DNA from: Selaginella moellendorffii
Lineage: Eukaryota > Plantae > Lycopodiophyta
NCBI RefSeq assembly: GCF_000143415.4
Contig: NW_003314320.1
Coordinates: 881,231-945,230, forward strand
Length of the DNA stretch: 64,000 bases
Direction of reading: 5' to 3'
Of the stretch, positions 1-46,487 are shown one piece after another. Each line of letters opens with the position of its first letter. Positions within the stretch are counted from its first letter, which is position 1. A program made the translations under genes and the position numbers. Under the pieces are notes generated by a model. The model worked only from the letters and a program-made list of their open reading frames with translations. It made no database searches and was not told where the DNA came from.

Positions 1-237
1 TTATTTCCCGGGGGTCGTCACTATGCTATTGAGGAACTAGGACCGATATCACTTGGGCGCACTGCTAATTCTGAAGGATTGGACATACGTTTCGACCCTT
101 GCTTGGCACTATCCTTCCTCGACACTAAAGGCTAGAGTTTGTATCTTAATTCAACTGAATAATCTCTACTTACCATTTCTTCTGCGACCTACATGGACAA
201 TGTTAGAAATGGTAAAAGGTTAGGAATGGATGTACTA

Positions 238-3200
238 TTATTTACCTGATGGTTTGTCTTGTATGACCTTCCTCCGCTGCTCTTTGGCCACCTCAGGCTG
301 GCCATCGTCGTCATCATCGTCATCGTCGTTATTGTGATCGTCACCATTGTGAGGACCATCCAAGTCCTCTTCGTCCTCCTCTTCTTCGTCCTCCTCTTCT
401 TTGTCTTCCTCTTCGTCCTTCTGCTCTTCCTGCTCATTATCTTTCTCTGGCTCCTCATCCCCCTCTTGCATTTCTTCCATAGGCTGCTCAGGCTGGATTG
501 CTTGTTTTTCCAGGACCATCTTGGAAAAATCATCTGGCTGAGTCTCCATCTCAAAATACAAGACATCCATAGCCTGTTTTAGTGCGTGACTTAGGACCGT
601 ATCCTCACCCGACTGTCTTAACATGGTTTCTGCACGTTCTTGCACCCTTCGAAGACGACGAGATGAGAAAAACGTGGCCCTGACTTGAAAAGCATCCCTC
701 ATCCATTGTACCTCTCCATTGAGATTGGGGAAGGGGAGTCCGCCATAGGAATCTGAGTCAGAAGGTGGTGACTGGCTCCTTTCACTCAGCCCTTGATCTG
801 CAATGAATGGCATGAGCACACACGCCATAACCGCGAGGCATTACCTATCATCTTTTCGTTGCCCTTCTTCCTTTTCGAATCAAACGCCTCTGATCCCGAC
901 GACTGTCCAACGTGCTTTCGCTTTTTATGACCACTGTCAGTTTGAGCTTGGCTGGTGCTTGCCTGTTTTGCCTTTGAAGAAGTGTCTCCTGCAAGGAATG
1001 GCATGAGACCACACGTCATTGCAAATATAATTTGTACCTCCTTTTTTCCTATTGCTTGTCTGTTTGTCATTCTTCGATGCGCCACCAGTGCGCTTTTCAG
1101 TCCTCGTGTCTGAATATTCACAACGATCTATAATCAAAATGGCGTGAGGCCTCACGTGACCTTACCTTGTGCAGGTTGTGACCTCGGCCTAACATCAGTA
1201 GCTGTTAACGCCGTTTCAGCATCTGGGGGTGGCCACGCTCCTGCATACAGAGCTTGTGAGATAACATTTAAACTTAAAGTGCGTACTCACCAGGTTTGTA
1301 GAGAAGATACTGTTTTTCTTTGGCAACTATAATTATATGCTCCATTGAAGTCACCTCTTCAATGGAGTTTGTCACCGCAACACACGGGACACCCTTGAGT
1401 AGTGCGGCTCGAAAAAATAGTTCGCCGCAGTTGTACTCGACAACGCATTTGCCCTTGGAGTCACCCGCTATTGCGTTGAAGACACAGCTGAGCATTTCCC
1501 ATGCTGCACCTGGAGCTTTCTTTGGATTCGAAAGCTCCATAGCCGTCTTCAGTTCCTCAGGCACGGGTAAATTGACCTCCCTCAGATCAATTCGATCGGC
1601 TTTGTTGAACGAAGCTGGGAAGTCACTCCAATCCCACTCTGCTGCAGGACCAATAACAAGGGCGACTGTGAAGATGCGGACATTCGTCGGTATCTTCTTC
1701 TTAGCCATTATCCCATGGATCTCCCGCATCTCCTTGCCTTTCAACCGGGCCTTCACCTCGTTCAAGGCCTTCCAGAACTTGTGATAGGATTCGGAGTCGT
1801 AGATCATATAGTGGACTGAAGATTCCACCTCCGCAAGTCCCACCATTAAGTCAATAATGGAGCTGACTTCGTCTGCATGAGTGATCTCCTCGTTTGTGAA
1901 GTCCATCACACAAAAGATGTTCTTGACCTGCTCATCTCCGCGGGAAACGATGCTCCTCCACCTTTGATCCTCATCCGAATTCACGTATACCCGATAAGGT
2001 TCTCGATAGGCCTCTGCTGCGGGGTCGAGCTATTTCTAAAGCCGGCGGTCGACATCCCTCTTAATGAAATTTGGATACTGATCCAACTTCTCAGCTTTAC
2101 TTTTCGTGGCATCCCGCAGCAGATCGATGAACTTGGGGGCCCCCTTCACGTACTCGTCGATGTCTTCATTTGACAAGTCCAGCTCTTCCATCATCTCTTG
2201 CGTGGTGTCGATACTCACCCTCGCCACGGCCACTTGCTCGAAGATCCAATCCTTCAATAGCGCACGAGCTCTCAGAGTCGTGCACAAGTCCTCGTATGTC
2301 ACAATATGGCCGGGAGTCATTTTGGTCTTGTTGAAGACTACCTCACCACGTAGAAGAGCATTAGCCACTGTCAGAAGGTCGTCGTCGTCTAGAGACCGCG
2401 AGAAACGCAAGGCGTTAAGCTTCAAATCATTGGGCTTCCGGCCGTCCTCCACACCCATTGAGTTTAGCAACTCCCCGTCATGGTACCTCCTTAGCACATC
2501 TACCCATTTGTCAAAAACAACTTTTGTCGCGAGTAGAATGTTATGGATGCTGAGTGTGTCATTGACCCCCAGTGTTTTCGAGAGAAGACTCGAGAATTCC
2601 TGCAATGGAAATGGCGTGAGGCCACATGCTATGCCACATGCAACGAGGCTTACCTGCCAGGCGCTAGTTGCTAGTGCACGTCCTTGTCCTGGTTTTTGTG
2701 GCTTCTTCAGTTGAACCCAGAGCTTCCGTGTTCGTGCCAATGTCTCGTGCAGACCCGATTTGTAGCACGTTTCTTGCTTGACATTCTGTGCGTGGGAGAT
2801 GTATATGATAGATCGGAGGGGCGAGTTGCCTTTTATCAGGCGGACAACTCTTGTCTTGAAGACTTTCTTCACCTCCTCGCCCACCATAATATCCACAACT
2901 ATCTGTTGCATCGCCAAGCTAGAATGCTGCCCGGAGACGGCATAGAACCGGATATTCTGATCGTCCAACACCTTCCTATTGATCAAGTCTGGAAACCTCG
3001 TCTCGCCCTTCATTGTTCGGTAGTAGGGGATCACGTCTGCGATGTCGGGTGTTACTGGACTTGCCAGCATCTTCTGCTTCAGTTTCTCCACCCACTCATC
3101 AGATACTAGCCTGTGGTTGTATTTGCTTTGGATCTCGATACGGCTCACGTCGATTGTATATACTTTGTTGGAATAGTAACAAGTACTATTATCTGCGATG

Positions 3201-3853
3201 ATTTTTGCTACCTCTTCTTGCTCTTTCTGCTCTTTGCGGCTCTTCTTTTTGGTGGGTGTAGTGTTCGAACCCGAGGCAATGGCATCACCGAGTAGCTTCT
3301 TTTTTGGAGCAGCAGAGTCGGACGTCGGCTTGAGCTTGACCACCCTTTTCTGCTTCGGGGTAGTTTCCAGATCGACCCCCTTCCCCTTCGCTTCGCAAAC
3401 TGGAGGCACTCTCAACAGCTCAATGTTGGAATATAGTTTTTGAACATCGCCGTAGGTGAGGTCCGTGGATTCCATGTGATCTTCATAGACCCGCAGCGTC
3501 TTTGAAATTGTGGGCCTCCTGGACAACCTCTCCCTAGCTCCCTCTAGGAATTCCTCATAGCCGTTGCCCCCCTCCGGGAAGCCGCTAGGATGTGCAAGGT
3601 GGATCTTGAAGGCGGACGCTGTCTCTACCACAAGTGCCAGTCCATATTCTTGCATGGAACTGCATGGAGTGTCTGTCACTTGGATGAGGATCCCCATGCA
3701 TTCTTTTCTCCCACCATCTGTGTTGTACAGCCTCAGATCCTCGCCTTCCATCCCGAAAGTCCAACTGGTGAGCTCCTCCCCCTTCTCTGCATCCACATTG
3801 ACAGTGGCTGGAAGAAGAACGCAATTCCTCGCCTGTTCAAAAATGCACAACAA
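238..3853 (-). pseudogene. Multi-exon cargo gene of transposon copy A: ParB/Srx-like region, degenerate amino-methyltransferase-like region, basic and acidic low-complexity tail
   Basis: ORFs 2036-3853, 1274-1984, 937-1155, 786-1121 and 238-828 join in frame through GT-AG introns at 2600-2653, ~1241-1290, 1110-1165, 989-1037 and 798-844 (the last four are phase 1). Two TAG stops at 2030-2038 are CAG in copy B. Domain calls rest on motif resemblance only (SGQHS; VVEYNCG...AALLKG). Confidence 0.7.
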
Positions 3854-6800
3854 TTAGAGCTGATAGATGAAAAGCTAGCAGCTGGAAATAACGTGAGGCC
3901 ACACGCCATTCACCACTGCATCAGATGTCTTGAGGCTGCATCCTAAAATGGCGTGAGGCTACACGCCATCTGTAACCGGACTGCACTCGAGAGCCCAATC
4001 GGTGCATGCCAATGTTGCTACTGAATGGCATGTGGCCTCATGCCATTTTCTACTTGGTCTAAAAGACTTACCATTTGAAGCCGAATGGAGGCCGTGACAA
4101 TCGAGGCCGGACTCGCTGGCGAATGTGCACTGTGTGTGCAGCGGATCGTAGCAGCAAGGCTACTCTGCCACTTACAGTTGGAGAGTGGTGCTGAAATCTC
4201 CCGGGACGCCAAGTGGGCTGCGTGTGGGTGGTGGAGTGGGCGGCGGAGTTGGCGGCGAAGTTACAAACTGGGTGTGTCTTGAAGTGGACGCCGATGCACA
4301 CGAGCGCGATGCGAGCGCGAGTGTGATGCAAGCGCGAGTGGACGCCGATGCACACGAGAAACCTGTAGAGAAGTGAGCGTGATCGCGAGTGGGAGCGCGA
4401 TGCGAGCGGGAGCGCGAGTGTGATGCGAGCGCGAGCGCGAGTGTGCGAGCGCGAGTACAAAGCAAAATGCAAAACCTAATCTCACACGCGCGAAATGTCA
4501 CAACGGTTGGTAATCCCGCCACGTCATCATTCCTCGGACTTGGGCGCCACCATTAATTTCTGGATTGCCGCGCGCATGCAAGCACGCAAAATCCAAAAGA
4601 AATCCGCAACGTCATCATTCCTCGGACTGCATGCACGCGAAATCCAAAAGAAAGATCATGATTGGGATATCATTTAATACCCTCGCTATATTTATACCAT
4701 GCATGATTGGATATTCCAAAGCATCTTGTATTTCCAAAAATGGCAGATGTTCAGCTAAATAAAGAAATTCTATCTGTTTCTATTTTTCTCTCAAATCAAT
4801 ATTATAGCGTGTAGGCTCATGCAATTTTGAACCAAAGAAACCCAAAAAACGTTGGACCCAAAATATTTTGAAAAAACCCAAAAAACCCTAAACATTTTAA
4901 ACCCAAAAATCCAGGCGTCCTGTGGCGTTATTCCTTCAATGGCGTGTGGGCGCATGCCATTTTCAGGGCCAAATGCTGAATGGAGAAAAATTCCCTTTCA
5001 GTGCAAATGCTGCAAGAGGCAGATGCCGAGCACAAAGGACTGTAACTACCTTACATGACACAGATAAACTTTTCTCTATTTGGCAAAGATAAACTTTATA
5101 GCGTGTGGGCTCATGCAATTTTGAACCCAAAAAATGCACCAAAAAATTCTCGGCGTCATCTGGCATTATCTCTTGAATGGCGTGGGGCCGCATGCCATTT
5201 TCAGGGGCACATAGGAGTATATTCCTAGGATATTCTGACACGCGTGAGATTTTTTTGAGTTTTCTGAAGATCCAACCGTTAGATCGCAACTAGATTTTAC
5301 AAAATGGTATACAATGTCTTTCTTGATGACCCTGCAAAGAAGCATCTTGATCGGACACCACATGAGACCACACGAGCCTTACAATGTTTCAGGGGCATTT
5401 GCCATAGATCCGACCGTTATTTTGCTCCAAGATTTTACAGTTTGGTGTGCATTGACCTTTCCATCGAAACTGCAAAGGGACATCACAATCAGATGCGGGA
5501 TCACAAGAAACTAACTTCACAACCTCTGGTTTCACCAAGATCTACGTAAGGAGTTATGAAATGAAAGGACCCTCTCTATTGAAATGTGTTTATTGTCCTA
5601 GGGGCATTGTGACATATCAAAGGATTTTGCATCAAGTTTTGTATTTGCATGTTTATCAAGCTACTGAATTGCTAAACCCTAAACCCTAAACATGTGGCAA
5701 ATGCTGCGTGAAGAAAGATGCCCTTTCTAGGCAAATGCTGTAAGAGGCAGATGCCGAGCAGATGTATCTCAGGCTAGCGAAGGGGACAAACGAAAGCTAG
5801 CTATAAACATGACGGGATGCAAATAGATTACTAGGCTGGTCCTACGAAAATCAAAAACCATAATTGAAAACATTGAAAATGCAAAAAAAAAGGTTTATAA
5901 TATTTTTGAATTTTAGGCAACCAAAGGAATGTAAGTAGGGCATGTGTTTGTAAGTTTAAAAATGCCTCAACCACTTAAATTCCCAAGTAAATAAAGCTGT
6001 TTCTATTTTTGGTACAGGTAAACTTTATAGCGTGTGGGCTCATGCAATTTTGAACCCAAAAATGCACCAAAAAATGCTCGACTAGCATTATTCTTTGAAT
6101 GGCATATGGCCTTATGTCGAGCATTATTCTTTGAATGGCGTGTGGCCTTATATTGCCATAAATGGACGTACACACACAGCATAATTATTCCTTTACACGG
6201 CGAATAATCTTCGCGCGGATCGCTGACATGGCATGGCAAAGTTCGAATCACTGACATGGCACAGCTGGATCGAGGCAAGGACATGATGTGACAAAGTTCA
6301 ACCTCCGACAGCAAAGTCTAGAAGCTACTCAGTTTGAAATTTGTCAGAGGAATCATAAGATCTGGTTTGTCAGAGGATTTGATGTGACGTTCAAGCGTGT
6401 GTTATTTTTGAATTCTCGAACTCATTCCTAGGTCTATCATTTTTGTGCGCCGTGTTCTTGGTTCCGCTGAGCGCAGTGAGCGCTGCTTGTGTAAGCGGCG
6501 TTGTGGGCTGTGGTTTATGCGTCTACGAGCGGTTGCCGCATTGCGAGCGCCATTGCGAGCGGCAGTTTATGCGAGTGGCAGTTTGTGCAAGCGGCGCTAC
6601 GAGCAGTTGCGGTGTTGCGAGCGGCGCTATGAGTAGTTGCGGTGTTGCGAGCGGCACTGTCTTTGGTGTGGCTACCGCTTCCTCTTGATATTCGGCACTT
6701 GTGCTTCCTGGTATGTTCACCATGGAATGGCTTAGGACCACATTTAGAAATGGCATGAGGCCACATGCCATCTTGGGCCCTTGCAATTTCATGGCTAGCG

Positions 6801-7021
6801 TATTGTCATGTATGTTTTTACTTGCCTGCAGCTGTGTGTATATCAAGATGGCATGAGGCCTCATGCCAATTTTGTGAATGCGAAATTTCACGTGGGTGTC
6901 AATAGCATGTTTGAATAATGGCATGTGGCCTCATGCTATTGAGGTTGTTTGGTATGTTATGATTTAGGCCATTCTCCAATCATTTTTTGTATGGTCTTAA
7001 CTTCTTTTCTGCACTTTCAGA

Positions 7022-10000
7022 ATGGCCTTCAGGGTTGGGGAAAAGGTTTACATTTTGAATGGTGGGAAGAGAGTTGCAAAAGGGACCCTTGTGTCTATGG
7101 ATCGGAACTTTGTTATACACTGTTAAAGGCTTGGGGAAGGCAATGCTGCTGTATCAGTAGAGACTGTCTTCGATGGGAATGTGGTCGCTATTGAACGAGG
7201 AGAGATGGTCGTCGGGGTAAATGTTGTTGTTGCCTTGAAAAATCTTCAGAAGAAAGCAGATGTTGGGGACAGCGCAAGTGCGACGCATGTTCCCTCCGTG
7301 GATTTTAAGAACCGTGCTACATGGATTCAGGCAAAAGTGTTTCTAAACAACCCCGAGGGGGAGGTGGTAGCTGAGGGCTTAGCCACAGTTGTCGATCCAA
7401 GAGATGCGGTTGCTAATCAAGAATTGGGCTGGGATGATATTGGAGTTGCGATTTTAGAGGTTGTTGACACAGAAGAAAACAGTCTGACTATTGGAAGCAT
7501 TGTGCGGTGGAAATTGAGGCACTTAGTGTTTGAGAATGTGAAGGATTCACAATCAAACACCACTACAACTGATGACAAAACATCTCTTCATGGGAAAAGA
7601 AAGTACACCTTCCTAAAGCGCAGCCAAAGGGATCTGAGCAACGAACCGAAAAGGCAGAAAATGGCGATGGAGGTTCAAATGGTCTCGACAGTTGCTTGTT
7701 GCAAGAGGAGGTGCTGTCAACATGCTGATTGGGATGCTATTGAAGAGGAGAGAGCAAGATACAAGACATTGTCCTGGAAGGCAGCTCGCAATTTTGTGTA
7801 TGAGGCATTACGGTCATCTGTTGATGCTTCAGAACATTAGGTGGGGGGCATGGTCTTCCAGAGGGGTTTGGTCTGCATGAAGGCATGGAGAATCATTTAT
7901 GGAGTCCCTCAAACCACATTCTACAGAATCAAAACTGAGTTCGAGGAACAAAGGGTTCAACAGGCAGTCCATGGGAACGACGGTACGCACAAAACCAGGG
8001 GTCATGTTGTATATGGAGAGGCAATCTTCAAGAGGTTTGTCGAGACATGTAGCGAGCAGCAACCACATAAAACCCGCCTCTTGGAAGATGGAACACGAGA
8101 CACCCAACGAGTTCTCCCTTCCATGTATACCAAGGGGGCCATATTGGAAGATGTGAATCGGGAACTCCAGAGTAATGGCTACAGGAAGCTGAGCCAATCT
8201 AGATTTAGTAGATTGTGGAGCAACAGGTTCAGGGATGTGAGTATAGGAAAGTACTCCAGCTTTTCAAAGTGTGACGAGTGCACTGCTATCAAAATGGCTT
8301 TGTCGAAGAATTCTTGCAGCGCTCAAGAGCGAGAGACGTTGATTAGAAGGCGGCTCGACCACAACATCGAGCAGAGAAGCTGCAGGACTGCATATTATCA
8401 TAACAGGATTCTCTCCATGGAGAGACCTGACTCTTACCTCTGCATCATCCACGACAAAATGGACTAGAAAAAGACGTGCTTACCTCGACTCAATCCTGCC
8501 CCTAAGGCAATCTCTTCATCCATACAGCTGCCTGTGTCTCTGTTTGGCATAATTGCTCATGGGCATGGTGCCCAGAACTATGGGAACTTCTTTGTACCTC
8601 TATGGGGTGGCGGGGGTGCAAACATGATGATTGCGTCCCTAGCAAAACACTTAAGGTCTCTGCAAAGTGCGCAGACTGAGCTGAACGGCCAACCCTTGCA
8701 TAAGGCCCTTGTCGATCGAACCCCATACAAGGTTCAGCTGGAGGAGGAGCAAAGGCTTGCAGTATCGCGTGGGGCCCCATGCCATCCCAGTGAATATGTT
8801 GGCCGTCAGATTGTAGGGTTATCACGTGAGGTCTCATGCCATTCCGACGAGGCTGGTCGCCCGGTGAATGCACAGCCTCATCTAAACGAAGCAGAATCTC
8901 AAGGAAGTTCTTGCGGCCGATATGGCCTTCCACCCCATCTTCTGCTCCAAACAGACAATGCTGGCAGTGAGAACAAAAACATGTACGTCTTCGCGTACTT
9001 GGCGATGCTTGTTGCCAAAGGCATATTTGAAACGGTTACACTTGGCTTTCTCATGGTTGGGCACACTCATGAAGACGTCGATGCCATGTTCAGTCACCTG
9101 GCAGAGTCCCTCCGGCGATCCAATGTCCTCACCCTCCCACAACTCTACGATGAATTCCAAAATTGCATCAAAGGCACTGTTGAAGCTGCACTTCTGACAG
9201 AGGTTCCAGACTTTAAGGGGTTTGTAAGAGGCTACATCAGGGATGGATCCGAAACGCTGATTGGCCACTCCAAGCCTCTTCAGTTTCATTTCAGCATGTG
9301 TGACGGTGCTCCAGTGATGAGGTACAAGATGAGAGAATGGGACATAGTGTGGCTGCCAGTGGACGGCATTGAACTCTTCAAGAGAGATCCCATAACTGGG
9401 GAACCTATGATTCCTCAGGGTTCCCCACGGCCGATGCACCTGGATGGACTCAAAGACCAGGAAAGTATAGTGGCCGGGATTAGACAGCATATTGCCTTCT
9501 AGAAGAGGGGGCTGGTGTTTGGTGGAGAATCCTATTTTCAGAGGTGCAAGCCTTTGCTCGAATACTGGGAGAAGATTATATCTGCTATCCAAAATGGGCC
9601 GGTTGTATATGAAGAATTGGAAGAGTCCTTTTGGCCAGAACCCAGAGCACCAGATAGTAGCGGAACAATGTCCTCTGGAAATGCAGTGACAGATAACGAT
9701 GTTGAGGATCACTATTGTGGGCCGAGGAACAAGAAGCCGGATTCAGCATTCAATCCAGTACAGGTCTGCAAAGGAATGGTCGTGCTTGTCAGACCCAGTA
9801 ATAAAAAACAAATGATATGGGTGGGGCGCTGCATCACTGATGCAGAGGAGGACGCGGAAACTAACTCCTTCAATGTAACTGTGGAGTGGTTCAAACCAAG
9901 TTCCAGATATACGAACGATTGCCTAGAAAAGAGATGGGTGCTGAATCCAAGGGATCCCAGCATGAGCATATCGGTGGATAATGTTGTGCATGGTTGGATG

Positions 10001-10090
10001 CGGAAGCAGAGTGCCACCATCACTTTGCCAGACCATGCAAGAGATGCAACAAGAGCATTCATAACCCGGGTTCAAGGTGAGATTCATTAA
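7022..10090 (+). pseudogene. Sola-type DDD transposase (DUF7869-like core), 1022 codons with 4 in-frame stops
   Basis: Motifs CCKRRCC, VCMKAWRIIYG, HGN, FSKCDEC, IIHDKMD, QTDNAGSENKN and FLMVGHTHEDVD. Stops at 7124, 7838, 8465 and 9500 are sense codons in copy B. Confidence 0.85.
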
Positions 10091-10801
10091 TATTCCTTTA
10101 CTAAGTTTCTAATGTATTTTATTTCAAGGTGAACAATCCGAATCTGAATCAGAGGAGGCGTGATGGCATGTGGCCTTACGCCATTCCTAGGTGAGATGAT
10201 ACAAATAACAAGTATAAATTCTTAGTTGTTCTAGCAAATCTTACTTAAAGTTCAAGGTGAACAAGCCGAATATGAATTCATCGGATTGTTATAACAAATT
10301 GCGAGGTGATGGCATGAGGCGATACGCCATTTGAGAGTGGTAGCCATTCCTATATGAGGTGAGTGAAGTATTTATTAGAAATACCTCATTCAATTGTGCA
10401 CTTCTAAGTCTTGGTCCACTTAGTACTGTTTGCATGTTTTTATTTTAATTCTTTCTCTAAAATGTTATTTAGCATGTGGCTTCATGCCATTGCTCTCCAC
10501 AATCATGCATTGAATTTCTATCCTTGCATAATACTTCTCCATATATATAGCATGTGCGCACATGTGATATGGTTCATTAGGCCTGATATAGTGTGTGAGG
10601 TAAAACAAAGATGATGTGACATATGCATTTACCAATCACACGTGCATAAATCTAATAATATGGCGTGTGGCCCATATTAATGGCACATAAACCCATATTG
10701 TGGGCTTACGTGCTTTATGTACCATCATTCCCTTGCAGCGTGTGTGTTGGTTTCCTTTTATAACACAACGAACTCCATATTTTAGGGTGAAGAGCGTTCT
10801 C

Positions 10802-11059
10802 ATGGCAAGCACAAAATCTGTAAGTGAGGCAGAAAAGGAGACGGAGAAGGAGATAGGTGAAGATGTAGAATATATAAGTCTTCCAAACTCCCCATACTAT
10901 ACTCCAGGTGATCATTTTTCTGAACAAACGGCAACATTAACAACTATCGAGAACGCCCCAGTAACGTCAGAGACAACAATCCAAAGCAAAACAACTAACC
11001 CGGAGAAGGATGATAGTACCGCTGAGAGTACCAAAAAGGAGGTGTCCACTAGCGCTTAG
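10802..11059 (+). CDS. Small acidic Ser/Thr-rich ORF (85 aa) near the right end of the transposon; unknown function
   Basis: ATG at 10802 with TTTTATAA about 45 nt upstream. Open in both copies (36333-36590). Confidence 0.35.
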   Translation: MASTKSVSEAEKETEKEIGEDVEYISLPNSPYYTPGDHFSEQTATLTTIENAPVTSETTIQSKTTNPEKDDSTAESTKKEVSTSA

Positions 11060-11719
11060 GCTTATAATGGCGTGTGCCCTCATGCCATTTACTTGATCAC
11101 CAAATACCTTTTTCCCTTTGCACTAGTATATCTTAATACCGGTCTGAGAAATAGAATGGCATGTGCCCTCAGGCCTTTTACTAAATCACCTTTGAAAGAA
11201 ATGCAAGCCTCTATGTCGTAAAAAAAAGGTACTAGAGAAATTCCTTAATAATATGAATGTTATTTAGTTTCATGAAAATACACTAAGGGTCAAATGAGTT
11301 AAATGACTTCTCCAGACTAGCAATGCCTCTTGCTACACCTTCACAATTAGATTCGTTAGAAAAAGATAACATTGAATAATATCTAAATGTTCTCACCATT
11401 AAGTTATATGTTTGGCTAATAGGAATGATGTTCATCTTGGAAAGCTCACCACACGCTCAATGAACAAACAAATAGTGTGTGCGCGCATGCCATCGCTCTT
11501 CTTTAGCTTCAGATTCGGCTTGTTCACCTTGACAATGAGATTTATTATACAACTAGATGGACTCAGTCTGGACATAAGGTCACCGCGCTAGTCACCATGC
11601 CCCAGATATGTCTAGCCCCTGGACAAAAAACATATAATTTCACGTCATTTTCAAATACTTGAAAATTTGTACCTAGTCCCATTTTACTGAATAAATCCCA
11701 CTTTAATGAAATAGAGCAT

Positions 11720-12819: not shown

Positions 12820-12821
12820 GT

Positions 12822-12836
12822 TTGATTCAGATTGTG
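12822..12836 (+). promoter_or_regulatory. Self-priming PBS of family A
   Basis: TTGATTCAGATTGTG, 2 nt after the LTR, is the exact reverse complement of LTR 12715-12729. No tRNA-type TGG PBS is present. Confidence 0.85.
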
Positions 12837-20772: not shown

Positions 20773-20777
20773 TTCTG

Positions 20778-25156: not shown

Positions 25157-25846
25157 GAAGGGGGTGCTGTCAGGAATCAAGCTCTATTTCGTTAAAGTGG
25201 GAATTGTCATTATCCCACTTGTAAAATAAGGTTTCCAAACCTTTATATAGTATATAAATATAACAAAATTCAACTGCATTGAGGCACATGCCATTTTATT
25301 TTAAATAAGGAAATGTTTACTCAATCACTTCTCCTCCCCCTGCCACTGCTTCACCTCTCTCTTCTCCTTGTCATCGTCGTCCAATTTCTTTCCATCCTTT
25401 TAATATTGGCTCAGTTGCTCTGAGTCTAGGTGGAGCCCAAGTCCCCATTCAATCTTTACTTTCCCCTTATTAATAAAACAACTTCGTAGACTTCCAATAA
25501 CATGCTATAACACTTCTAGTATAATGCAAATCCTCTCAAAGAATTGTCTTTTAATATTAATACAATGGCATGGAACCCCATGCCATAATAAGTTACATTT
25601 TTAAATAAATATATGCCATCTCAGACTGTTATTTTTTGCCTCCAACGCTTATACAATAATCTTGGAATTTCATCACTCTCCACACTATCAGGATTTAAAC
25701 CCAATAGTAATGCCATCTCTTCTCTAATACGTCCACGCTTATGTTCAGTGGTCGAAAAACCCATCCGGTTGAGCAGATTATGGAGATGCGGATAGTGCTT
25801 GGCTAGACAATATACATGCCATAAATGATGACTGGTGTCTATCCGA

Positions 25847-26506
25847 TCAAATGGCTTCTGATATACCGTTCCATCTGCCATTTGGTTGATTTTCTACAGC
25901 CACCTCCTGGACTGGCCGGTTCTCTATCACCATCGCTCCAAGCCGTTTTGCAAGGTCCCCCAGAACATACAGTTTCTTCTCCCTAGTTTCCATACTGTAA
26001 GAGATGGGGTGCACTGCATATGTGTGCGTGTTCGCTGCAGTTTTAATCAGCGAGTCATCGATGATGAGGATTTCACTTGACCTAGCAGTCCGGTTCATCA
26101 CTACAGCCTCTGGCTTGACGAAGATGGGTTTGCTACCCCTCACATGGACCATAGTCAAGCAATCCTCCTGTGTTAGGAGAAAGTCAAATGGTAATATTAC
26201 TCGTGTCTGATCGTGCATCATTTGTAGCAACGTTAATGCATTGTGGCGCATCATGGATGTCCAAACTCCCAATTGCAAATTGAACCCAGCCCTCTGTTTT
26301 AAGTGTCGCATGGTCATTATTAGATCCCGCAGTTTTTCCCGTGTGATTAATGTGAATCTGTCTCTTTTGACCAACTTGCGACCGCAGGCTTTGGAGGGTG
26401 CAGTGACATTTGAGGACGAGCCACGCTCATGGGAGAAAAGGACACCGTTCAGATCAAAAACGATACAGTACCTTCGCCGTGACTCTGAAATGAAATGCGT
26501 CAGCAT
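25847..26506 (-). CDS. FCP1/NIF-like HAD-superfamily phosphatase domain; probably a 3' exon of the cargo gene
   Basis: IVFDLNGVL (motif I, with N in place of the second D), GVWTS (motif II) and LIIDDS..K (motif IV). A TTTCAG splice acceptor lies at ~26485-26490. Confidence 0.7.
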   Translation of the reverse strand: MLTHFISESRRRYCIVFDLNGVLFSHERGSSSNVTAPSKACGRKLVKRDRFTLITREKLRDLIMTMRHLKQRAGFNLQLGVWTSMMRHNALTLLQMMHDQTRVILPFDFLLTQEDCLTMVHVRGSKPIFVKPEAVVMNRTARSSEILIIDDSLIKTAANTHTYAVHPISYSMETREKKLYVLGDLAKRLGAMVIENRPVQEVAVENQPNGRWNGISEAI

Positions 26507-26565
26507 AAAAAATGGTACAAGTCAATTTTACCATCTACAATATTAGCGAATGGTGCTCCCGATGG

Positions 26566-29500
26566 TCATTGAGAGGGTTTTGGTCGAGGAAACGTGAAGG
26601 GCGGAAATACTCTCCTCTGTAATGTGGGGTCAATCGCATCCGATGGCGTGTGGGCACATGCTATTTCAGCTGTAGACTCTGGTACAACTGGCTCAATAGT
26701 GGCATGGGGTGGTTCCGATGGCGTGTGATCACACGCCATTTCAGCTGGTGCCTCCGTTGGCAAAGTGGACATGACCGAACAGGCAGCAGGGGCGGTGTAA
26801 GGAGGTTCCAACGGCGCGTAGTCAGACGATTGGGCACACGTTGAGTCCGTTGGAAATGAGGATACGACCGGCTCGGCGGCTGGGGCGGCCTCATGCGGGT
26901 CCAATGGCGCCTGGTCACCGTCAGTTGGATACGTGGACAAGATTGACTCAGTGGTATGGGTAGCATCAAGTGGAGCGTGGTCAGCTTGCTTGGCGTTGAT
27001 ATGGATAGTAGCCTCCACCGGCTCTGATGACTCTTGCAGGCAAGTAGAGTCCACTGGCGGATCCATATGCATGTCCAAATATCTCCCTTCGATTAAGATG
27101 GTATCCTCCCGTGCTACTAAAAACAAACTCATTAGCACATTGAATCGACTATACTGTATTTACCATCAACTGCTATTGAGGAACTAGGACCGATATCACT
27201 TGGGCGCACTGCTGATTCTGAAGGATTGGACATACGTTTCGACCCTTGCTTAGCACTATCCTTCCTCGACACTAAAGGCTAGAGTTTGTAAATTCAACTG
27301 AATAATCTCTACTTACCATTTGCTCTGCGACCTACATGGACAATGTTAGAAATGGTAAAAGGTTAGGAATGGATGTACTATTATTTACCTGATGGTTTGT
27401 CTTGTATGACCTTCCTCCGCTGCTCTTTGGCCACCTCAGGCTGGCCATTGTCGTCATCATCGTCGTCGTCGTTATTGTGATCGTCACCATTGTGAGGACC
27501 ATCCAAGTCCTCTTCGTCCTCCTCTTCTTCGTCCTCCTCTTCGTCCTTCTGCTCTTCCTGCTCATTATCTTTCTCTGGCTCCTCATCCCCCTCCTGCATT
27601 TCTTCCATAGGCTGCTCAGGCTGGATGGCTTGTTCTTCCAGGACCATCTTGGGAAAATCATCTGGCCGAGTCTCCATCTCAAAATACAAGACATCCATAG
27701 CTTGTTTTAGTGCGTGACCTAGGACCGTATCCTCACCCAACTGTCTTAACATGGTTTCTACACGTTCTTGCACCCTTCGAAGACGACGAGATGAGAAAAA
27801 CGTGGCCCTGACTTGAAAAACATCCCTCATCCATTGTACCTCTCCATTGAGATTGGGGAAGGGGAGTCCGCCATAGGAATCTGAGTCAGGAGGTGGTGAC
27901 TGGCTCCTTTCACTCAGCCCTTGATCTGCAATGAATGGCATGAGCACACACGCCATAACCGCGAGGCATTACCTATCATCTTTTCGTTGCCCTTCTTCCT
28001 TTTTGAATCAAACGCCTCTGATCCCGATGACTGTCCAACGTGCTTTCGCTTTTTATGACCACTGTCAGTTTGAGTTTGGCTGGTGCTTGCCTGTTTTGCC
28101 TTTGAAGAAGTGTTTCCTGCAAGGAATGGCATGAGACCACACGCCATTGCAAATATAATTTGTACCTCCTTTTTTCCTATTTCTTGTCTGTTTGTCCTTC
28201 TTCGACGCGCCACCAGTGCGCTTTTCAGTCCTCGTGTCTGAATATTCACAACGATCTATAATCAAAATGGCGTGAGGCCTCACGTGACCTTACCTTGTGC
28301 AGGTTGTGAGCTCGGCCCAACATGGGTATCTTCAACAGTAGCTGTTAACGCCGTTTCAGCATCTGGGGGTGGCCACGCTCCTGCATACAGAGCTTGTGAG
28401 ATAACATTTAAACTTAAAGTGCGTACTCACCAGGTTTACAGAGAAGATACTGTTTTTCTTTGGCAACTATAATTATATGCTCCATTGAAGTCACCTCTTC
28501 AATGGAGTTTGTCACCGCAACACACGGGACACCCTTGAGTAGTGCGGCTCAAAAGAATAGTCCGCCGCAGTTGTACTCGACAACGCATTTGCCCTTGGAG
28601 TCGGAAGTAGGTGACCCACCCGCTATTGCGTTGAAGACCCAGCTGAGCATTTCCCATGCTGCACCTGGAGCTTTCTTTGGATTCGAAAGCTCCATAGCCG
28701 TCTTCAGTTCCTCAGGCACGGGTAAATTGACCTCCCTCAGATCAATTCGATCGGCCTTGTCGAATGAAGTTGGGAAGTCACTCCAGTCCCACTCTGCTGC
28801 AGGACCAATAACAAGGGCGAGTGTGAAGATGCAGACATTCGTCGGTATCTTCTTTTTAGCCATTATCCCATGGATCTCCTGCATTTCCTTGCCTTTCAAC
28901 CAAGCCTTCACCTCGATCAAGGCCTTCCAGAACTTGTGATAGGATTCGGAGTCGTAGATCATATAGTGGACTAAAGATTCCACCTCCGCAAGTCCCACAA
29001 TTAAGTCAATGATGGAGCTGACTTCGTCTGCATGAGTGATCTCCTCGTTTGTGAAGTCCATCACACAAAAGATGTTCTTGACCTGCTCATCTCCGCGGGA
29101 AATGATGTTCCTCCACCTTTGATCCTCATCCGAATTCATGTATACCCGGTAAGGTTCTCGATAGGCCTCTGCTGCGGGGTTGAGCTGTTTCTGAAGCCGG
29201 CAGTCGACATCCCTTTTAATGAAATTTGGATACTGATCCAACTTCTCAGCTTTACTTTTCGTGGCATCCCGCAGCAGATCGATGAACTTGGGGGCCCCCT
29301 TCACGTACTCGTCGATGTCTTCATTTGACAACTCCAGCACTTCCATCATCTCTTGTGTGGTGTCGATGCTCACCCTCTCCACGGCCACTTGCTCGAAGAT
29401 CCAATCCTTCAATAGCGCACGAGCTCTCAGAGTCGTGCACAAGTCCTCGTATGTCACAATATGGCCGGGAGTCATTTTGGTCTTGTTGAAGACTACCTCA

Positions 29501-29842
29501 CCACGTAGAAGAGCATTAGCCACTGTCAGAAGGTCGTTGTCGTCTAGAGACCGCGAGAAACGCAAGGAAGCTGCTAGGATGTGCAAGGTGGATCTTGAAG
29601 GCGGACGTTGTCTCTACCACAAGTGCCAGTCCATATTCTTGCATGGAATTGCATGGAGTGTCTGTCACTTGGATGAGGATCCCCATGCATTCTTTTCTCC
29701 CACCATCTGTGTTGTATAGCCTCAGATCCTCGCCTTCCATCCCGAAAGTCCAACTGGTGAGCTCCTCCCCCTTCTCTGCATCCACATTGACAGTGGCTGG
29801 AAGAAGAACGCAATTCCTTGCCTGTTCAGAAATGCACAACAA
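26566..29842 (-). pseudogene. Cargo gene of copy B (Pro/Ala-rich, acidic and MTase-like exons) with a 1166-bp internal deletion
   Basis: Homologous to copy A 24-3853. The junction at ~29567 removes copy A 2413-3578. Confidence 0.72.
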
Positions 29843-32552
29843 TTAGAGCTGACAGATGAAAAGCTAGCAGCTGGAAATAACGTGAGGCCACACGCCATTC
29901 AGCACTGCATCAGATGTCTTGAGGCTGCATCCTAAGATGGCGTGAGGCTACACGCCATCTGTAACCGGACTGCACTCGAGAGCCCAATCGATGCATGCCA
30001 ATGTTGCTACTGAATGGCATGTGGCCTCATGCCATTTTCTACTAGGCCTAAAAGACTTACCATTTGAAGCCGAATGGAGGCGTGACAATCGAGGCTGAAC
30101 TCGCTGGCGAATGTGCACTGTGTGTGCAGCAGATCGTAGCAGCAAGGCTACTCTGCCACTTACAGTTGGAGAGTGGCGCTGAAATCTCCCGGGACGCCAA
30201 GTGGGCTGCGTGTGGGTGGTGGAGTGGGCGGCGGAGTTGGCGGCGAAGTTACAAACTGGGTGTGTCTTGAAGTGGACGCCGATGCACACGAGCGCGATGC
30301 GAGCGCGTGTGATGCAAGCGCGAGTGGACGCCGATGCATACGAGAAACCTGTAGAGAAGGTAGATGAGTGCGAATGTGAGCGTGATCGCGAGTGGGAGCG
30401 CGATGCGAGCGCGAGTACGAAGCAAAATGCAAAACCTAACCTCACATGCGCGAAATATCACGACGGTTGGTAATCCTGCCACGTCATCATTCCTCGGATT
30501 TGGGCGCCACCATTAATTTCTGGATCGCCGTGCGCATGCATGCATGTGAAATCCAAAAGAAATCCGCGACGTCATCATTCCTCGGACTGCATGCACGCGA
30601 AATCCAAAAGAAAGATCATGATTGGGATATCATTTAATACCCTCGCTATATTTATACCATGCATGATTGGATATTCCAAAGCATCTTGTATTTCCAAAAA
30701 TGCCAGATGTTCAGCTAAATAAAGAATGGTATACAAAAAATCCCAAAAAATGCACCAAAAAATGTTCAGCGTCATCTGGCGTTATCTCTTGAATGGCGTG
30801 GGGCCGCATGCCATTTTCAGGGGCACATAGGAGTATATTCCTAGGATATTCTGACACGCGCGAGATTTTTTTGAGTTTTCTGGAGATCCAACCGTTAGAT
30901 CGCAACTAGATTTTACAAAATGGTATACAATGTCTTTCTTGATGACCCTGCAAAGAAGCATCTTGATCGGACACCACATGAGACCACACGAGCCTTACAA
31001 TGTTTCAGGGGCATTTGCCATAGATCCGACCGTTATTTTGCTCCAAGATTTTACAGTTTGGTGTGCATTGACCTTTCCATCGACATTGCAAAGGGACATC
31101 ACAATCAGATGCGGGATCACAAGAAACTAACTTCACTAACTCTGGTTTCACCAAGATCTACGTAAGGAGTTATGAAATGAAAGGACCCTCTCTATTGAAA
31201 TGTGTTTATGGTCCTAGGGGCATTGTGACATATCAAAGGATTTTGCATCAAGTTCTGTATTTGCATGTTTATCAAGCTACTGAATTGCTAAACCCTAAAC
31301 CCTAAACATGTGGCAAATGCTGCATGAAGAAAGATGCCCTTTCTGGGTAAATGCTGTAAGAGGCAAATGCCGAGCAAATGTATCTCAGGCTAGCGAAGGG
31401 GACAAACGAAAGCTAGCTATAAACATGACGGGATGCAAATAGATTACTAAGCTGGTCCTACGAAAATCAAAAACCATAATTGAAAACATTGAAAATACAA
31501 AAAGACAGGTTTATAATATTTTTGAATTTTAAGCAACCAAAGGAATGTAAGTAGGGCATGTGTTTGTAAGTTTAAAAATGCCTCAACCACTTAAATTCCC
31601 AAGTAAATAAAGTTGTTTCTATTTTTGGTATAGGTAAACTTTATAGCGTGTGGGCTCATGCAATTTTGAACCCAAAAATGCACCAAAAAATGTTCGACTA
31701 ACATTATTCTTTGAATGGCGTGTGGCCTTATATTGCCATAAATGGGTGTACACACACAGCATAATTATTCCTTTACACGGCGAATAATCTTGGCACGGAT
31801 CGCTGATATGGCATGGCAAAGTTCGAATCACTGACATGGCACAGCTGGATCGAGGCAAGGACATGATGTGACAAAGTTCAACCTCCAACAGCAAAGTTTA
31901 GAAGCTACTCAGTTTGAAATTTGTCAAAGGAATCATAAGATCTAGTTTGTCAGAGGATTTGATATGATGTTCAAGCGTGTGTTATTTTTGAATTCTCAAA
32001 CTCATTCCTAGGTCTATCATTTTTGTGCGCCGTGTTCTTGGTTCCGCTGAGCGCAGTGAGCGCTGCTTGTGTAAGCGGCGTTGTGAGCTGTGGTTTATGC
32101 GTCTACGAGCGGTTGCGGCATTGCGAGCGCCATTGCGAGTGGCAGTTTATGCGAGTGGCAGTTTGTGCGAGTAGCAGTTTGTGCGAGCGGCGCTACGAGC
32201 AGTTGCGGTGTTGCGAGCGGCACTACGAGTAGTTGCGGTGTTGTGAGCGGCACTGTCTTTGGTGTGGCTACTGCTTCCTCTTGATATTTGGCACTTGTGC
32301 TTCCTGGTATGTTCACCATGGAATGGCTTAGGACCACATTTAGAAATGGCATGAGGCCACATGCCATCTTGGGCCCTTGCAATTTCATGGCTGTCATGTA
32401 TGTTTTTACTTGCCTGCAGCTGTATGTATATCAAGATGGCATGAGGCCTCATACCATTGTTGGCCCCTGCTAGCCTATTGCCATATTCCTTTTGCCTTGC
32501 TGCAACTGTACATATTTTTGTATGGTCTTAACTTCTTTTCTGCACTTTCAAA

Positions 32553-35500
32553 ATGGCCTTCAGGGTTGGGGAAAAGGTTTACATTTTGAATGGTGGGAAA
32601 AGAGTTGCAAAAGGGACCCTTGTGTCTATGGATCGGAACTTTGTTATACACTGTCAAGGGCTTGGGGAAGGCAATGCTGCTGTATCAGTAGAGACTGTCT
32701 TCGATGGGAATGTGGTCGCTATTGAACGAGGAGAGATGGTCGTCGGGGTAAATGTTGTTGTTGCCTTGAAAAATCTTTAGAAGAAAGCAGATGTTGGGGA
32801 TAGCGCAAGTGCGACGCATGTTCCCTCCATGGATCTTAAGAACCGTGCTACATGGATTCAGGCAAAGGTGTTTCTAAACAACCCTGAGGGGGAGGTGGTA
32901 GCTGAGGGCTTAGCCACAGTTGTCGATCCAAGAGATGCGGTTGCTAATCAAGAATTGGGCTGGGATGATATTGGAGTTGCGATTTTAGAGGTTGTTGACA
33001 CAGAAGAAAACAGTCTGACTATTGGAAGCATTGTGCGGTGGAAATTAAGGCACTTAGTGTTTGAGAATGTGAAGGATTCACAATCAAACACCACTACAAC
33101 TAATGACAGAACATCTCTTCATGGGAAAAGAAAGTACACCTTCCTAAAGCGCAGCCAAAGGGATCTGAGCAACGAACCAAAAAGGCAGAAAATGGCGATG
33201 GAGGTTCGAATGGTCTCAACAGTTGCTTGTTGCAAAAGGAGGTGCTGTCAACATGCTGATTGGGATGCTATTGAAGAGGAGAGAGCAAGATACAAGACAT
33301 TGTCCTGGAAGGCAGCTCGCAATTTTGTGTATGAGGCATTACGGTCATCTGTTGATGCTTCAGAACATCAGGTGGGGGGCATGGTCTTCTAGAGGGGTTT
33401 GGTCTGCATGAAGGCATAGAGAATCATTTATGGAGTCCCTCAAACCACATTCTACAGAATCAAAACTGAGTTCGAGGAACAAAGGGTTCAACAGGCAGTC
33501 CATGGGAACGATGGTACGCACAAAACCAGGGGTCATGTTGTATATGGAGAGGTAATCTTCAAGAGGTTTGTCGAGACATGTAGCGAGCAGCAACCACATA
33601 AAACCCGCCTCTTGGAAGATGGAACACGAGACACCCAACGAGTTCTCCCTTCCATGTATACCAAGGGGGCCATATTGGAATATGTGAATCGGGAACTCTA
33701 GAGTAATGGCTACAGGAAGTTGAGCCAATCTAGATTTAGTAGATTGTGGAGCAACAGGTTCAGGGATGTGAGTATAGGAAAGTACTCCAGCTTTTCAAAG
33801 TGTGACGAGTGCACTGCTATCAAAATGGCTTTGTCGAAGAATTCTTGCAGCGCTCAAGAGCGAGAGACGTTGATTAGAAGGCGGCTCGACCACAACATCG
33901 AGCAGAGAAGCTGCAGGACTGCATATTATCATAACAGGATTCTCTCCATGGAGAGACCTGACTCTTACCTCTGCATCATCCACGACAAAATGGACCAGAA
34001 AAATATGTGCTTACCTCGACTCAATCCTGCCCCCAAGGCAATCTCTTCATCCATGCAGCTGCCTGTGTCTCTGTTTGGCATAATTGCTCATGGGCATGGT
34101 GCCCAGAACTATGGGAACTTCTTTGTACCTCTATGGGGTGGCGGGGGTGCAAACATGATGATTGCATCCCTAGCAAAACACTTAAGGTCTCTGCAAAGTG
34201 CACAGACTGAGCTGAACGGCCAACCCTTGCATAAGGCCCTTGTCGATCGAACCCCATACAGGGTTCAGCTGGAGGAGGAGCAAAGGCTTGTAGTATCATT
34301 TGGGGCCCCATGCCATCCCAGTGAGTATGTTGGCCGTCAGATTGTAGGGTTATCACGTGAGGCCTCATGCCATTCTGACGAGGCTGGTCGCCCGGTGAAT
34401 GCACAGCCTCATCCAAACGAAGCAGAATCTCAAGGAAGTTCTTGCGGCCGATATGGCCTTCCACCCCATCTTCTGCTCCAAACAGACAATGCTGGCAGTG
34501 AGAACAAAAACATGTACGTCTTCGCGTACTTGGCGATGCTTGTTGCCAAAGGCATATTTGAAACGGTTACACTTGGCTTTCTCATGGTTGGGCACACTCA
34601 TGAAGACGTCGATGCCATGTTCAGTCACCTGGCAGAGTCCCTCCGGCGATCCAATGTCCTCACCCTCCCACAACTCTACGATGAACTCCAAAATTGCATC
34701 AAAGGCACTGTTGAAGCTGCACTTGTGACAGAGGTTCCAGACTTTAAGGGGTTTGTAAGAGGCTACATTAGGGACGGATCCGAAACATTGATTGGCCACT
34801 CGAAGCCTCTTCAGTTTCATTTCAGCATGCATGACGGTGCTCCAGTGATGAGGTACAAGATGAGAGAATGGGACATAGTGTGGCTGCCAGTGGACGGCAT
34901 TGAACTCTTCAAGAGAGATCCCATAACTGGGGAACCTATGATTCCTCAGGGTTCCCCACAGCCGATGCACCCGGATGGACTCAAAGACCAGGAAAGTATA
35001 GTGGCCGGGATTAGACAGCATATTGCCTTCTGGAAGAGGGGGTTGGTGTTTGGTGGAGAATCCTATTTTAAGAGGTGCAAGCCTTTGCTCGAATACTGGG
35101 AGAAGATTATATCTGCTATCCAAAATGGGCTGGTTGTATATGAAGAATTGGAAGAGTCCTTTTGGCCAGAACCCAGAGCACCAGATAGTAGCGGAACAAT
35201 GTCCTCTGGAAATGCAGTGACAGATAACGATGTTGAGGATCACTATTGTGGGCCGAGGAACAAGAAGCCGGATTCAGCATTCAATCCAGTACAAGTCTGC
35301 AAAGGAATGGTCGTGCTTGTCAGACCCAGTAATAAAAAACAAATGATATGGGTGGGGCGCTGCATCATTGATGCAGAGGAGGACGCGGAAACTAACTCCT
35401 TCAATGTAACTGTGGAGTGGTTCAAGCCAAGTTCCGGATATACGAAGGATTGCCTAGAAAAGAGATGGGTGCTGAATCCAAGGGATCCCAACATGAGCAT

Positions 35501-35621
35501 ATCGGTGGATAATGTTGTGCATGGTTGGATGTGGAAGCAGAGTGCCACCATCACCTTGCCAGACCATGCAAGAGATGCAGCAAGAGCATTCATAACCCGG
35601 GTTCAAGGTGAGATTCATTAA
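32553..35621 (+). pseudogene. Sola-type DDD transposase of copy B, 1022 codons with 4 in-frame stops
   Basis: Same motifs as copy A. Stops at 32778, 33390, 33417 and 33699; the 633-codon C-terminal part is open. Confidence 0.87.
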
Positions 35622-46256: not shown

Positions 46257-46291
<35 letters not shown>

Positions 46292-46294
46292 TAT

Positions 46295-46329
<35 letters not shown>

Positions 46330-46454
46330 TATATATATACACATACACATACACATACACATATACATATACACATACACATACACATATACACATACAT
46401 ACACATACACATATACATATACACATACATATACATACACATATACATATACAC

Positions 46455-46487
<33 letters not shown>

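What the first reader, a model, noticed from the sequence alone, without database searches (positions are those of the whole stretch)
798..4071. Palindromes sit inside the cargo gene's 47-56 nt introns, just upstream of the 3' splice site
Seen: the minus-strand introns 798-844, 989-1037, 1110-1165, 2600-2653 and 4021-4071 each contain one palindrome filling about 40% of the intron, mostly ending 4-11 nt before the intron end. Splicing the four inside the coding region keeps one reading frame. Inference: either introns serve as neutral slots that keep binding-site density high across a coding gene, or the RNA hairpin regulates splicing (autoregulation), or the motif is linked to intron creation.
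Basis: partly seen in the sequence, partly recalled or inferred. Interest (0 to 1): 0.82.

Follow-up and report, generated by a model that had tools for sequence, protein, structure and literature searches.

The report
Transposon palindromes parked in tiny introns
A jumping gene, likely from a non-seed plant, carries about 28 copies of its own 22-base palindrome, four of them inside tiny predicted introns that likely serve as free slots for DNA docking sites of a protein the element encodes, predicted to have a ParB fold; a similar design has already been proposed, but not tested, for algal transposons.

Summary
The palindromes are real, but they belong to a 12-13 kb cut-and-paste transposon (24-bp terminal repeats, 4-bp target duplication, DUF7869 transposase, Sola-like), not to introns as such. 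All 46 copies lie in the two element copies; none lies in 40 kb outside. The fifth (4021-4071) is probably a wrong acceptor of a 239-nt intron. The frame also needs motif-free introns. Only 4 of 9 short introns carry the motif, yet introns are enriched (about 10 per kb, against 2.8 in other non-coding and 0.5 in coding DNA). The arms do not covary, which fits a protein-bound DNA site better than an RNA hairpin. In 3 of 4 short introns the motif's CTCAY sits where motif-free introns keep their branch-point-like sequence, which likely explains the position near the 3' splice site. The cargo has a predicted ParB fold. A distant family has its own palindrome, also in an intron. Splicing, binding and function are untested; no junction reads were found. 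New variant of the ParB-accessory design proposed for algal transposons, with VANC-like logic.

The parts
24..11719 (.). Transposon copy 1; left part interrupted at about base 24; right terminal repeat 11696-11719
   Evidence: 94-98% identical to 27171-37248 in blocks; terminal repeat with 2 changes
25179..37250 (.). Transposon copy 2, both ends present: 24-bp terminal inverted repeats, 4-bp target duplication at 25175-25178 and 37251-37254, inserted in an LTR; lacks the counterpart of 2412-3577
   Evidence: Empty site in the window; empty-site joint 25174-37251 with 4 letters fitting both sides in run X7
24..4074 (-). Cargo gene, copy 1: predicted 8 introns, 1,149 codons to the break, premature stops at 2038 and 2032; with the copy-2 tail the family gene is about 1,560 codons
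   Evidence: Gene model and leave-one-out test; length
2768..3181 (-). ParB/sulfiredoxin-fold domain (model residues 225-362)
   Evidence: AlphaFold2 model on a 20-row alignment; VIA Z 9.8 PadC, 9.0 KorB, 8.6 pNOB8 ParB; Foldseek top hits Noc, ParB, KorB at E 2e-3 to 3e-2
2039..2599 (-). Helical domain after the ParB-fold domain, candidate DNA-binding part
   Evidence: Aligned together with the N-domain to pNOB8 ParB (225-527, Z 8.6, rmsd 4.9, 206 aligned) and Spo0J (Z 4.6); weak
1292..2029 (-). Degenerate N4/N6 DNA-methyltransferase-like domain, probably inactive
   Evidence: Atlas lead only: N6_N4_Mtase clusters at 0.88; no Pfam hit; model pLDDT 36; catalytic motifs (recalled) not intact
25850..26484 (-). 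NIF/FCP1-like phosphatase domain, predicted last exon of the cargo gene (copy 2)
   Evidence: Pfam NIF E 6.9e-07; in frame after splicing with one stop at 26568, a stop absent in run X7; NIF also in L010 and L051
7022..10090 (+). DUF7869 transposase gene, 1,022 codons, four internal stops; two palindromes in frame at 8764 and 8821, inside a variable insertion
   Evidence: Pfam DUF7869 E 2.6e-43
6711..7020 (+). Predicted 5' intron of the transposase gene, with three palindromes (6750, 6848, 6918)
   Evidence: GT..AG directly before the ATG; unproven
3833..4071 (-).
   Evidence: Joins ATG in frame; omitting it gives 61 stops
2600..2653 (-). Intron with palindrome at 2611-2632; CTCAC with A at -18
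   Evidence: In-frame insertion against P0075; 12 of 16 homologous ORFs end just past this position
1241..1290 (-). Motif-free intron needed for the frame; CTCAC with A at -17
1110..1165 (-). Intron with palindrome at 1139-1160, near the donor (29 nt from the end)
989..1037 (-). Intron with palindrome at 998-1019; CTCAT with A at -16
798..844 (-). Intron with palindrome at 807-828; CTCAT with A at -16
125..245 (-). Two motif-free predicted introns, 189-245 and 125-173
   Evidence: Omitting either breaks the frame
26485..27163 (-). Copy 2: motif-free introns 27114-27163 and 26485-26531 around an exon with two in-frame palindromes (26643, 26718)
4804..6120 (.). Six palindromes in the intergenic region between the divergent genes (4804, 4939, 5098, 5177, 6027, 6099)
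10163..11493 (.). Seven palindromes between the transposase stop and the right end

Best explanation
The 22-bp palindrome is repeated along a whole DNA transposon and is likely a double-stranded DNA docking site for the element's own cargo protein, predicted to have a ParB fold, with the tiny predicted introns likely acting as slots where a site costs no protein sequence. Shown: the motif is confined to the element, avoids coding DNA, varies independently in its two arms, and is replaced by a different palindrome in a distant family. Predicted: ParB-fold domain followed by a helical domain. Inferred: a dimer of the cargo binds the two half-sites, as ParB, Noc and KorB bind palindromes (established knowledge), and marks the element as self, most likely to keep it transcribed against host methylation, as VANC does for VANDAL. 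Inferred: sites spread by local duplication and persist in introns, intergenic DNA and poorly conserved protein segments. In a 47-54-nt intron a 22-nt site fits best when its CTCAY arm also serves as the branch point, which fixes it 9-11 nt from the 3' splice site.
For: 46 of 46 motifs inside the two element copies, 0 in 40 kb outside. Density per kb: short introns 8.7, long first introns 10.9, other non-coding 2.8, coding 0.5. P(at most 4 of 28 in coding)=5e-6; P(at least 10 of 24 non-coding sites in introns)=0.004; sites are not independent. The 4 coding copies lie in a variable transposase insertion and a low-complexity exon. No covariation: score 0.185 against 0.199 shuffled, 390 of 500 shuffles as high; positions 9/14 are mismatched T/T or A/A in 18 of 29 copies; C5 is kept in 56 of 58 half-sites while the next base varies A/G. 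ParB fold: the three best VIA rows and the ten best Foldseek rows are ParB, Noc, KorB or PadC. A second family has its own 18-20-bp palindrome at 4 or more copies in 15 loci; 9 loci carry 1-2 copies mid-way in a 248-300-nt predicted transposase intron and none in 450 nt upstream or 1,500 nt downstream; L051 also holds a cargo homologue. CTVAY with A at -15 to -19 in 4 of 5 motif-free introns (background 0.027); the motif's own CTCAY at -16, -16, -18 in 3 of 4 motif introns, P about 0.002, post hoc. Precedent: Petroll preprint, Ectocarpus paper, VANC papers.
Against: No binding data. No junction reads. A cargo homologue was found in only 1 of 80 related loci; L010/L011/L014 keep 33 motifs and the NIF part but lack the ParB part; in L051 the cargo runs in the same direction as the transposase and may be a separate copy. 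Foldseek gave no hit at E<=0.001, and Z 8-10 is modest. The family has SGQH where ParB has an arginine motif (recalled), so CTP use is uncertain. Short introns alone are not significantly enriched over other non-coding DNA (P=0.11). Motifs are barely more conserved between the two copies than other DNA (1.9% against 2.4-2.6%). Spacing is not more even than random.
Confidence: 0.55

Rival explanations
1. The palindromes are binding sites of the transposase (or a TnpA-like domain of it), used for self-activation or synapsis; the cargo is a bystander. Introns are still only slots.
For: A 2026 preprint reports sequence-specific activation by transposases (abstract and passages). L001 has a palindrome cluster upstream of its transposase and no cargo within 5.6 kb. 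Motif-rich loci without a detectable ParB part exist.
Against: The motif does not resemble the terminal repeat and is spread internally; TnpA effects are described as restricted to termini. L001 is a short contig and the L010 group looks like a deletion derivative. The ParB fold is the natural reader of a palindrome (established knowledge).
Confidence: 0.17
2. The motif works as an RNA hairpin that hides the branch point and lets the element tune splicing of the cargo transcript.
For: In 3 introns the branch-point-like CTCAY lies in the 3' arm of a predicted stem; intron 798-844 folds at -16.2 kcal/mol, z -1.7.
Against: z-scores of the four credible introns are -1.7, -0.9, -0.2 and +0.45. No compensatory changes; only 2 of 29 copies have a perfect 9-bp stem; G-U pairs 6 on the transcribed strand against 4 on the other. 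18 of 28 copies are outside predicted introns. In the second family the sites lie 87-208 nt from the acceptor.
Confidence: 0.1
3. The sites bind a host transcription or chromatin factor, or are a nearly neutral product of local duplication with no element-encoded reader.
For: Several copies share 60-80 bp of flank, which shows spread by local duplication. Conservation between the two copies is hardly raised.
Against: No copy outside the element in 40 kb; each family has its own palindrome; the core is kept while flanks differ.
Confidence: 0.12
4. The motif creates introns, as a small introner-like insertion.
For: 4 short introns are about 40% motif, and two neighbouring ones are 87% alike over 31 nt.
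Against: Most motifs are not in introns and 5 of 9 short introns lack it. The 2600-2653 position appears conserved: 12 of 16 homologous ORFs stop 6-50 residues after the same anchor, 11 of them past a W/F-x-V that fits a GT donor. The matching stretch of L051 has no motif. Four homologues read through that position, so intron loss or gain has occurred there.
Confidence: 0.04

Closest known systems
PAG3 of red-algal Plavaka (EnSpm) transposons, Petroll et al., bioRxiv 10.1101/2025.02.11.637652 (passages read)
   Same: Transposon accessory gene with an N-terminal ParB-like domain, inverted repeats in the same element, and a proposal that the protein binds and modifies its own element; untested there too.
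   Different: There: tandem arrays next to PAG3, a 2OG-oxygenase partner domain, a Plavaka transposase. Here: dispersed single sites including introns and coding DNA, a degenerate methylase-like domain plus a NIF phosphatase-like domain, a DUF7869 transposase.
Sola1-1_Ec32 of Ectocarpus, PMC12477816 (passages and supplement rows read)
   Same: Giant Sola element with 4-bp TSD and AA..TT ends; accessory gene on the strand opposite the transposase; ParB-like domain fused to an N4/N6 methylase domain.
   Different: 21.5 kb with 282-bp imperfect TIR against 12-13 kb with 24-bp TIR. The word 'palindrom' does not occur in its main text. Methylase motifs look lost here. No sequence comparison could be run.
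VANDAL/VANC anti-silencing system of Arabidopsis, PMC5735166 and PMC10398659 (passages read)
   Same: Family-specific short motifs in introns, intergenic and terminal non-coding DNA of the element, bound by an element-encoded protein; motifs spread by local repeats; the effect spreads into coding DNA.
   Different: VANDAL is Mutator-like (recalled); the VANC motif is a 9-bp asymmetric sequence arrayed in one orientation; no homology to VANC was seen or tested; anti-silencing is not shown here.
Bacterial ParB-parS, Noc-NBS and KorB-OB
   Same: Predicted ParB N-domain followed by a helical domain; multiple palindromic sites on the same DNA unit.
   Different: Eukaryotic, intron-containing gene; no ParA partner seen; GQH in place of the arginine motif (recalled); 22-bp site against 13-16 bp (recalled).

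Membership tests
Sola superfamily DNA transposon | 4-bp target site duplication | tested here: met
   Copy 2 junctions and empty site; feature as given in PMC10741241
Sola superfamily DNA transposon | Terminal inverted repeats, 11-1124 bp | tested here: met
   24-bp perfect repeat in copy 2
Sola superfamily DNA transposon | DDD-type transposase | tested here: inconclusive
   Conserved aspartates in HDKMD, QxDN and GHTHEDxD across the alignment; their assignment as the catalytic triad is recalled
Sola superfamily DNA transposon | Groups with named Sola1/2/3 transposases | not testable with these tools
   No named Sola sequence was returned; DUF7869 is in no held paper; the founding paper was not held
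ParB-accessory transposons (PAG3 / Sola1-1_Ec32 type) | Accessory gene with ParB-like domain | tested here: met
   Fold searches; modest scores, no Pfam hit
ParB-accessory transposons (PAG3 / Sola1-1_Ec32 type) | Repeated inverted repeats in the element | tested here: met
   28 sites per composite element; dispersed rather than tandem
ParB-accessory transposons (PAG3 / Sola1-1_Ec32 type) | Fused DNA-modifying domain | tested here: inconclusive
   N6_N4_Mtase lead at 0.88; model unusable; no relevant PDB sequence hit
ParB/Noc/KorB CTP clamps | Arginine-rich CTP-binding motif (recalled) | tested here: inconclusive
   GQH in all 16 rows that cover it; an upstream Arg and a downstream Asn are mostly kept
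ParB/Noc/KorB CTP clamps | Binds a palindromic site as a dimer and spreads | not testable with these tools
   Needs biochemistry; no dimer prediction was obtained
VANDAL/VANC | Mutator-type transposase (Mutator TSD 7-12 bp) | tested here: not met
   DUF7869 transposase and 4-bp TSD
VANDAL/VANC | Family-specific motifs in non-coding DNA including introns | tested here: met
VANDAL/VANC | Accessory protein induces hypomethylation of its own family | not testable with these tools
   No expression or methylome data
Introner-like intron-creating element | Element equals the intron and recurs at unrelated new positions (recalled definition) | tested here: not met
   Motif covers 39-47% of the intron, occurs mostly outside introns, and the intron position is conserved without it

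The most novel reading that the evidence does not exclude
A land-plant transposon runs a eukaryotic ParB/parS-like system: the cargo loads at family-specific palindromes, spreads along the element and carries a polymerase-tail-type phosphatase-like domain and a dead methylase domain to shield it from silencing.
Probability: 0.2. Interest if true: 0.8.

Novelty: new variant of a known kind. Interest (0 to 1): 0.47.

Why it matters
[quoted passage not shown] This element gives a defined 22-bp candidate site, a candidate reader and a second family with a different site, so cognate against non-cognate binding can be tested directly. If the site is also the branch point, it is a compact case of one sequence read as DNA by a protein and as RNA by the spliceosome. 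Without those tests it is a well-mapped extra example.

Tried and rejected
No host genome is held, so copy number and sister families in this genome were not examined. RNA: no RNA holder listed. Three raw RNA runs, about 12 in 100 of each read, had no depth over 798-2653 and no joints; their peak at 4139-4178 comes from reads whose flanks are unrelated. Contig runs X1-X3, RNA only by guess, cross introns unspliced and may be DNA or pre-mRNA. I take this as silence of the element in those samples, not as a test. Word-indexed protein searches with the cargo found nothing; the HMMER search gave 21 hits, of which I dropped P0072 and P0082 as repeat-driven chance matches and did not examine P0093; the other 18... 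rows used are the 19 ids. Pfam found no ParB or DUF3723 in the cargo or those 19 homologues; the Atlas match to DUF3723 clusters (0.96) is a lead only. tblastn of cargo proteins against the 80 loci was empty; only profiles found L051. The viral-contig scan with the cargo alignment could not run. The C-terminal model was too poor to search. Rfam found nothing credible in 1-12000. Even tiling of sites was tested and not found. No dimer prediction was obtained. Many top palindromes are AT-rich chance hits and were ignored; only L001, L023 and the family looked specific. Literature: 10 searches showed no paper on such palindromes in bryophyte transposon introns or on a site doubling as branch point; most subscription journals, Repbase and bioRxiv supplements (Petroll Suppl. 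Fig. 13 may show the repeats) were not visible.
Full report
What the region is. The finding lies in the accessory gene of a DNA transposon present twice in the window. Copy 2 is complete at both ends: 25179-37250, with 24-bp terminal inverted repeats and a 4-bp duplication, confirmed by an empty site in the window and by an empty-site joint in run X7. Copy 1 (24-11719) has a different right flank, so it is a separate insertion. The plus-strand gene is a DUF7869 transposase. Its named relatives are from Ceratodon and Riccia at 26-34% identity, so the host is likely a non-seed land plant (inferred). The 4-bp duplication, terminal repeats and conserved aspartates fit Sola as described in PMC10741241 (passage); membership was not tested by phylogeny. 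Both copies are decayed. Against X7 the listed differences are mostly T>C (76) and A>G (49), with 6 C>T and 5 G>A, which suggests methylcytosine decay in the window's copy (inference).

The observation. The motif, ATGGCRTGWGGCCWCAYGCCAT, occurs 46 times in the window, always inside the two copies, and 0 times in 40,210 other bases. The frame claim needs repair. The four coding introns alone leave stops. With eight introns, three of them motif-free, copy 1 reads 1,149 codons with two premature stops; omitting any one of seven introns adds stops, while 2600-2653 is in frame either way. For that intron the support is from homologues: P0075 lacks the insertion, and 12 of 16 homologous gene calls end just past this point, 11 after a W/F-x-V; 4 of 16 read through. 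The acceptor at 3833 restores the frame and has a branch-point-like CTAAT. Copy 2 adds two more motif-free introns and a NIF-like last exon. So 4 of 9 short introns carry the motif. No junction read was found; the introns are predictions.

Where the motif sits. On a composite element of 13,688 bp there are 28 sites: 4 in short introns, 6 in the two long first introns, 14 in other non-coding DNA, 4 in coding DNA. Densities are 8.7, 10.9, 2.8 and 0.5 per kb. Coding DNA is strongly avoided (P=5e-6). Introns as a class are enriched over other non-coding DNA (P=0.004), short introns alone are not (P=0.11), and sites are not independent because several arose by local duplication. The coding copies lie in a variable insertion of the transposase and a low-complexity exon. 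From the positions, removing the intronic and coding sites would leave about 6.4 kb of the cargo gene without a site, but overall spacing is no more even than random (P=0.56).

DNA site or RNA hairpin. Across the 29 aligned copies (the 28 plus one weaker copy at 6135) the arms do not covary: 83.7% paired against 84.6% shuffled, covariation 0.185 against 0.199. Positions 9 and 14 are mismatched in the same way (T/T or A/A) in 18 of 29, so the site is a slightly asymmetric sequence kept in two orientations rather than a stem. The four credible introns fold no better than shuffles. This is the pattern expected of two protein-read half-sites (inference).

Why near the 3' splice site. Four of the five motif-free short introns have CTVAY with the A at -15 to -19, against 2.7% background, which also supports these introns as real. 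In three of the four motif introns the only such pentamer in that range is the motif's own CTCAY, at -16, -16 and -18; chance about 0.002, computed after seeing the pattern. The fourth has the motif beside the donor and a separate candidate at -25. The branch-point consensus is recalled. The simplest reading is packing: a 22-nt site fits a 50-nt intron by doubling as the branch point.

The cargo. A model built on a 20-row alignment (mean pLDDT 66.8; most ten-residue blocks from 200 to 600 above 70) matches PadC, KorB and pNOB8 ParB at Z 9.8, 9.0, 8.6 (rmsd 3.0, 2.8, 4.9; 98, 94, 206 aligned). Foldseek's ten best rows are Noc, ParB and KorB, none at E<=0.001. Sulfiredoxin and kinases with the same fold follow closely, so the fold does not prove DNA binding. 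The next domain resembles N4/N6 methylases only as a lead and its catalytic motifs (recalled) look lost. The last domain is NIF-like.

Relatives. One scan of metagenomes kept the best 80 of 446 relatives found in 22 of 64 parts of the collection. L001 has a palindrome cluster of its own. Fifteen loci share a second palindrome at 4 or more copies. In 9 loci a 248-300-nt predicted intron of the transposase gene holds 1-2 copies, 87-208 nt from the acceptor, with none in the flanking 450 and 1,500 nt; these are related, decayed copies, some with damaged splice signals, and count as one example. So intronic placement recurs, but nearness to the 3' splice site does not. Only L051, 1 of 80, has a detectable cargo homologue. 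It has motif arrays before the gene and before its NIF part, and no motif at the stretch matching 2600-2653. L010, L011 and L014 keep motifs and NIF but lack the ParB part.

Known systems. Petroll et al. (passages) describe ParB-domain PAG3 beside arrays of inverted repeats and propose self-binding. The Ectocarpus paper (passages and supplement rows) describes a ParB-methylase gene opposite the transposase in Sola1-1_Ec32. Hosaka 2017 and Sasaki 2023 (passages) show VANC binding family-specific motifs in introns and other non-coding DNA, with spreading. Iyer 2015 (passages) mentions ParB-type HTH fused to methylases in chlorophytes and chytrids. The 2026 transposase preprint was seen as abstract and passages. 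Two earlier AI notes report similar elements in other genomes; they are not independent evidence.

Verdict. Real motif, four credible motif introns, one mis-called. Most likely a DNA site for an element-encoded ParB-fold reader (0.55), with introns as slots and probable double use as branch point. It works like VANC/VANDAL in layout but is not a member. It is a new variant of the ParB-accessory transposons proposed for algae. Interest 0.47.

Noticed in passing
window 4139-4178 (and 30127-30166): A 40-nt patch upstream of the cargo start is matched by hundreds of RNA reads whose flanks are unrelated to the element and look like large-subunit rRNA (recalled); possibly a captured rRNA fragment.
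   Followed up: partly
window 49998-50172: A 175-bp copy of the element's right end (99% identical to 11543-11717) sits alone inside an LTR.
   Followed up: partly
window 11720-25178 and 37251-53406: All element copies and fragments are inserted in Ty3/Gypsy-type retrotransposon sequence, some with a chromodomain; possible targeting or survival bias.
   Followed up: no
L010 5870-7088; L051 5646-6050: In the second family the palindrome forms tandem arrays of 24-nt and about 50-nt period next to the NIF-like exon; the 24-nt array is open in one frame for 90 codons.
   Followed up: partly
window 2039-3283: Language-model features place the cargo's ParB part next to fungal DUF3723 clusters (0.96), a family recalled as Starship cargo; no held paper contains both DUF3723 and ParB.
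   Followed up: partly
window 4296-4465 and 6523-6659: Short GC-rich tandem repeats just inside the start of each of the two divergent genes.
   Followed up: no
window 45772-46760 and 56800-57150: AT-rich satellite-like repeats with inverted copies, unrelated to the element.
   Followed up: no
L023 7430-8085; L047 11473-12160; L052 7733-8355; L055 13238-13790: Other DUF7869 loci show other clustered palindromes, possibly further family-specific sites.
   Followed up: no
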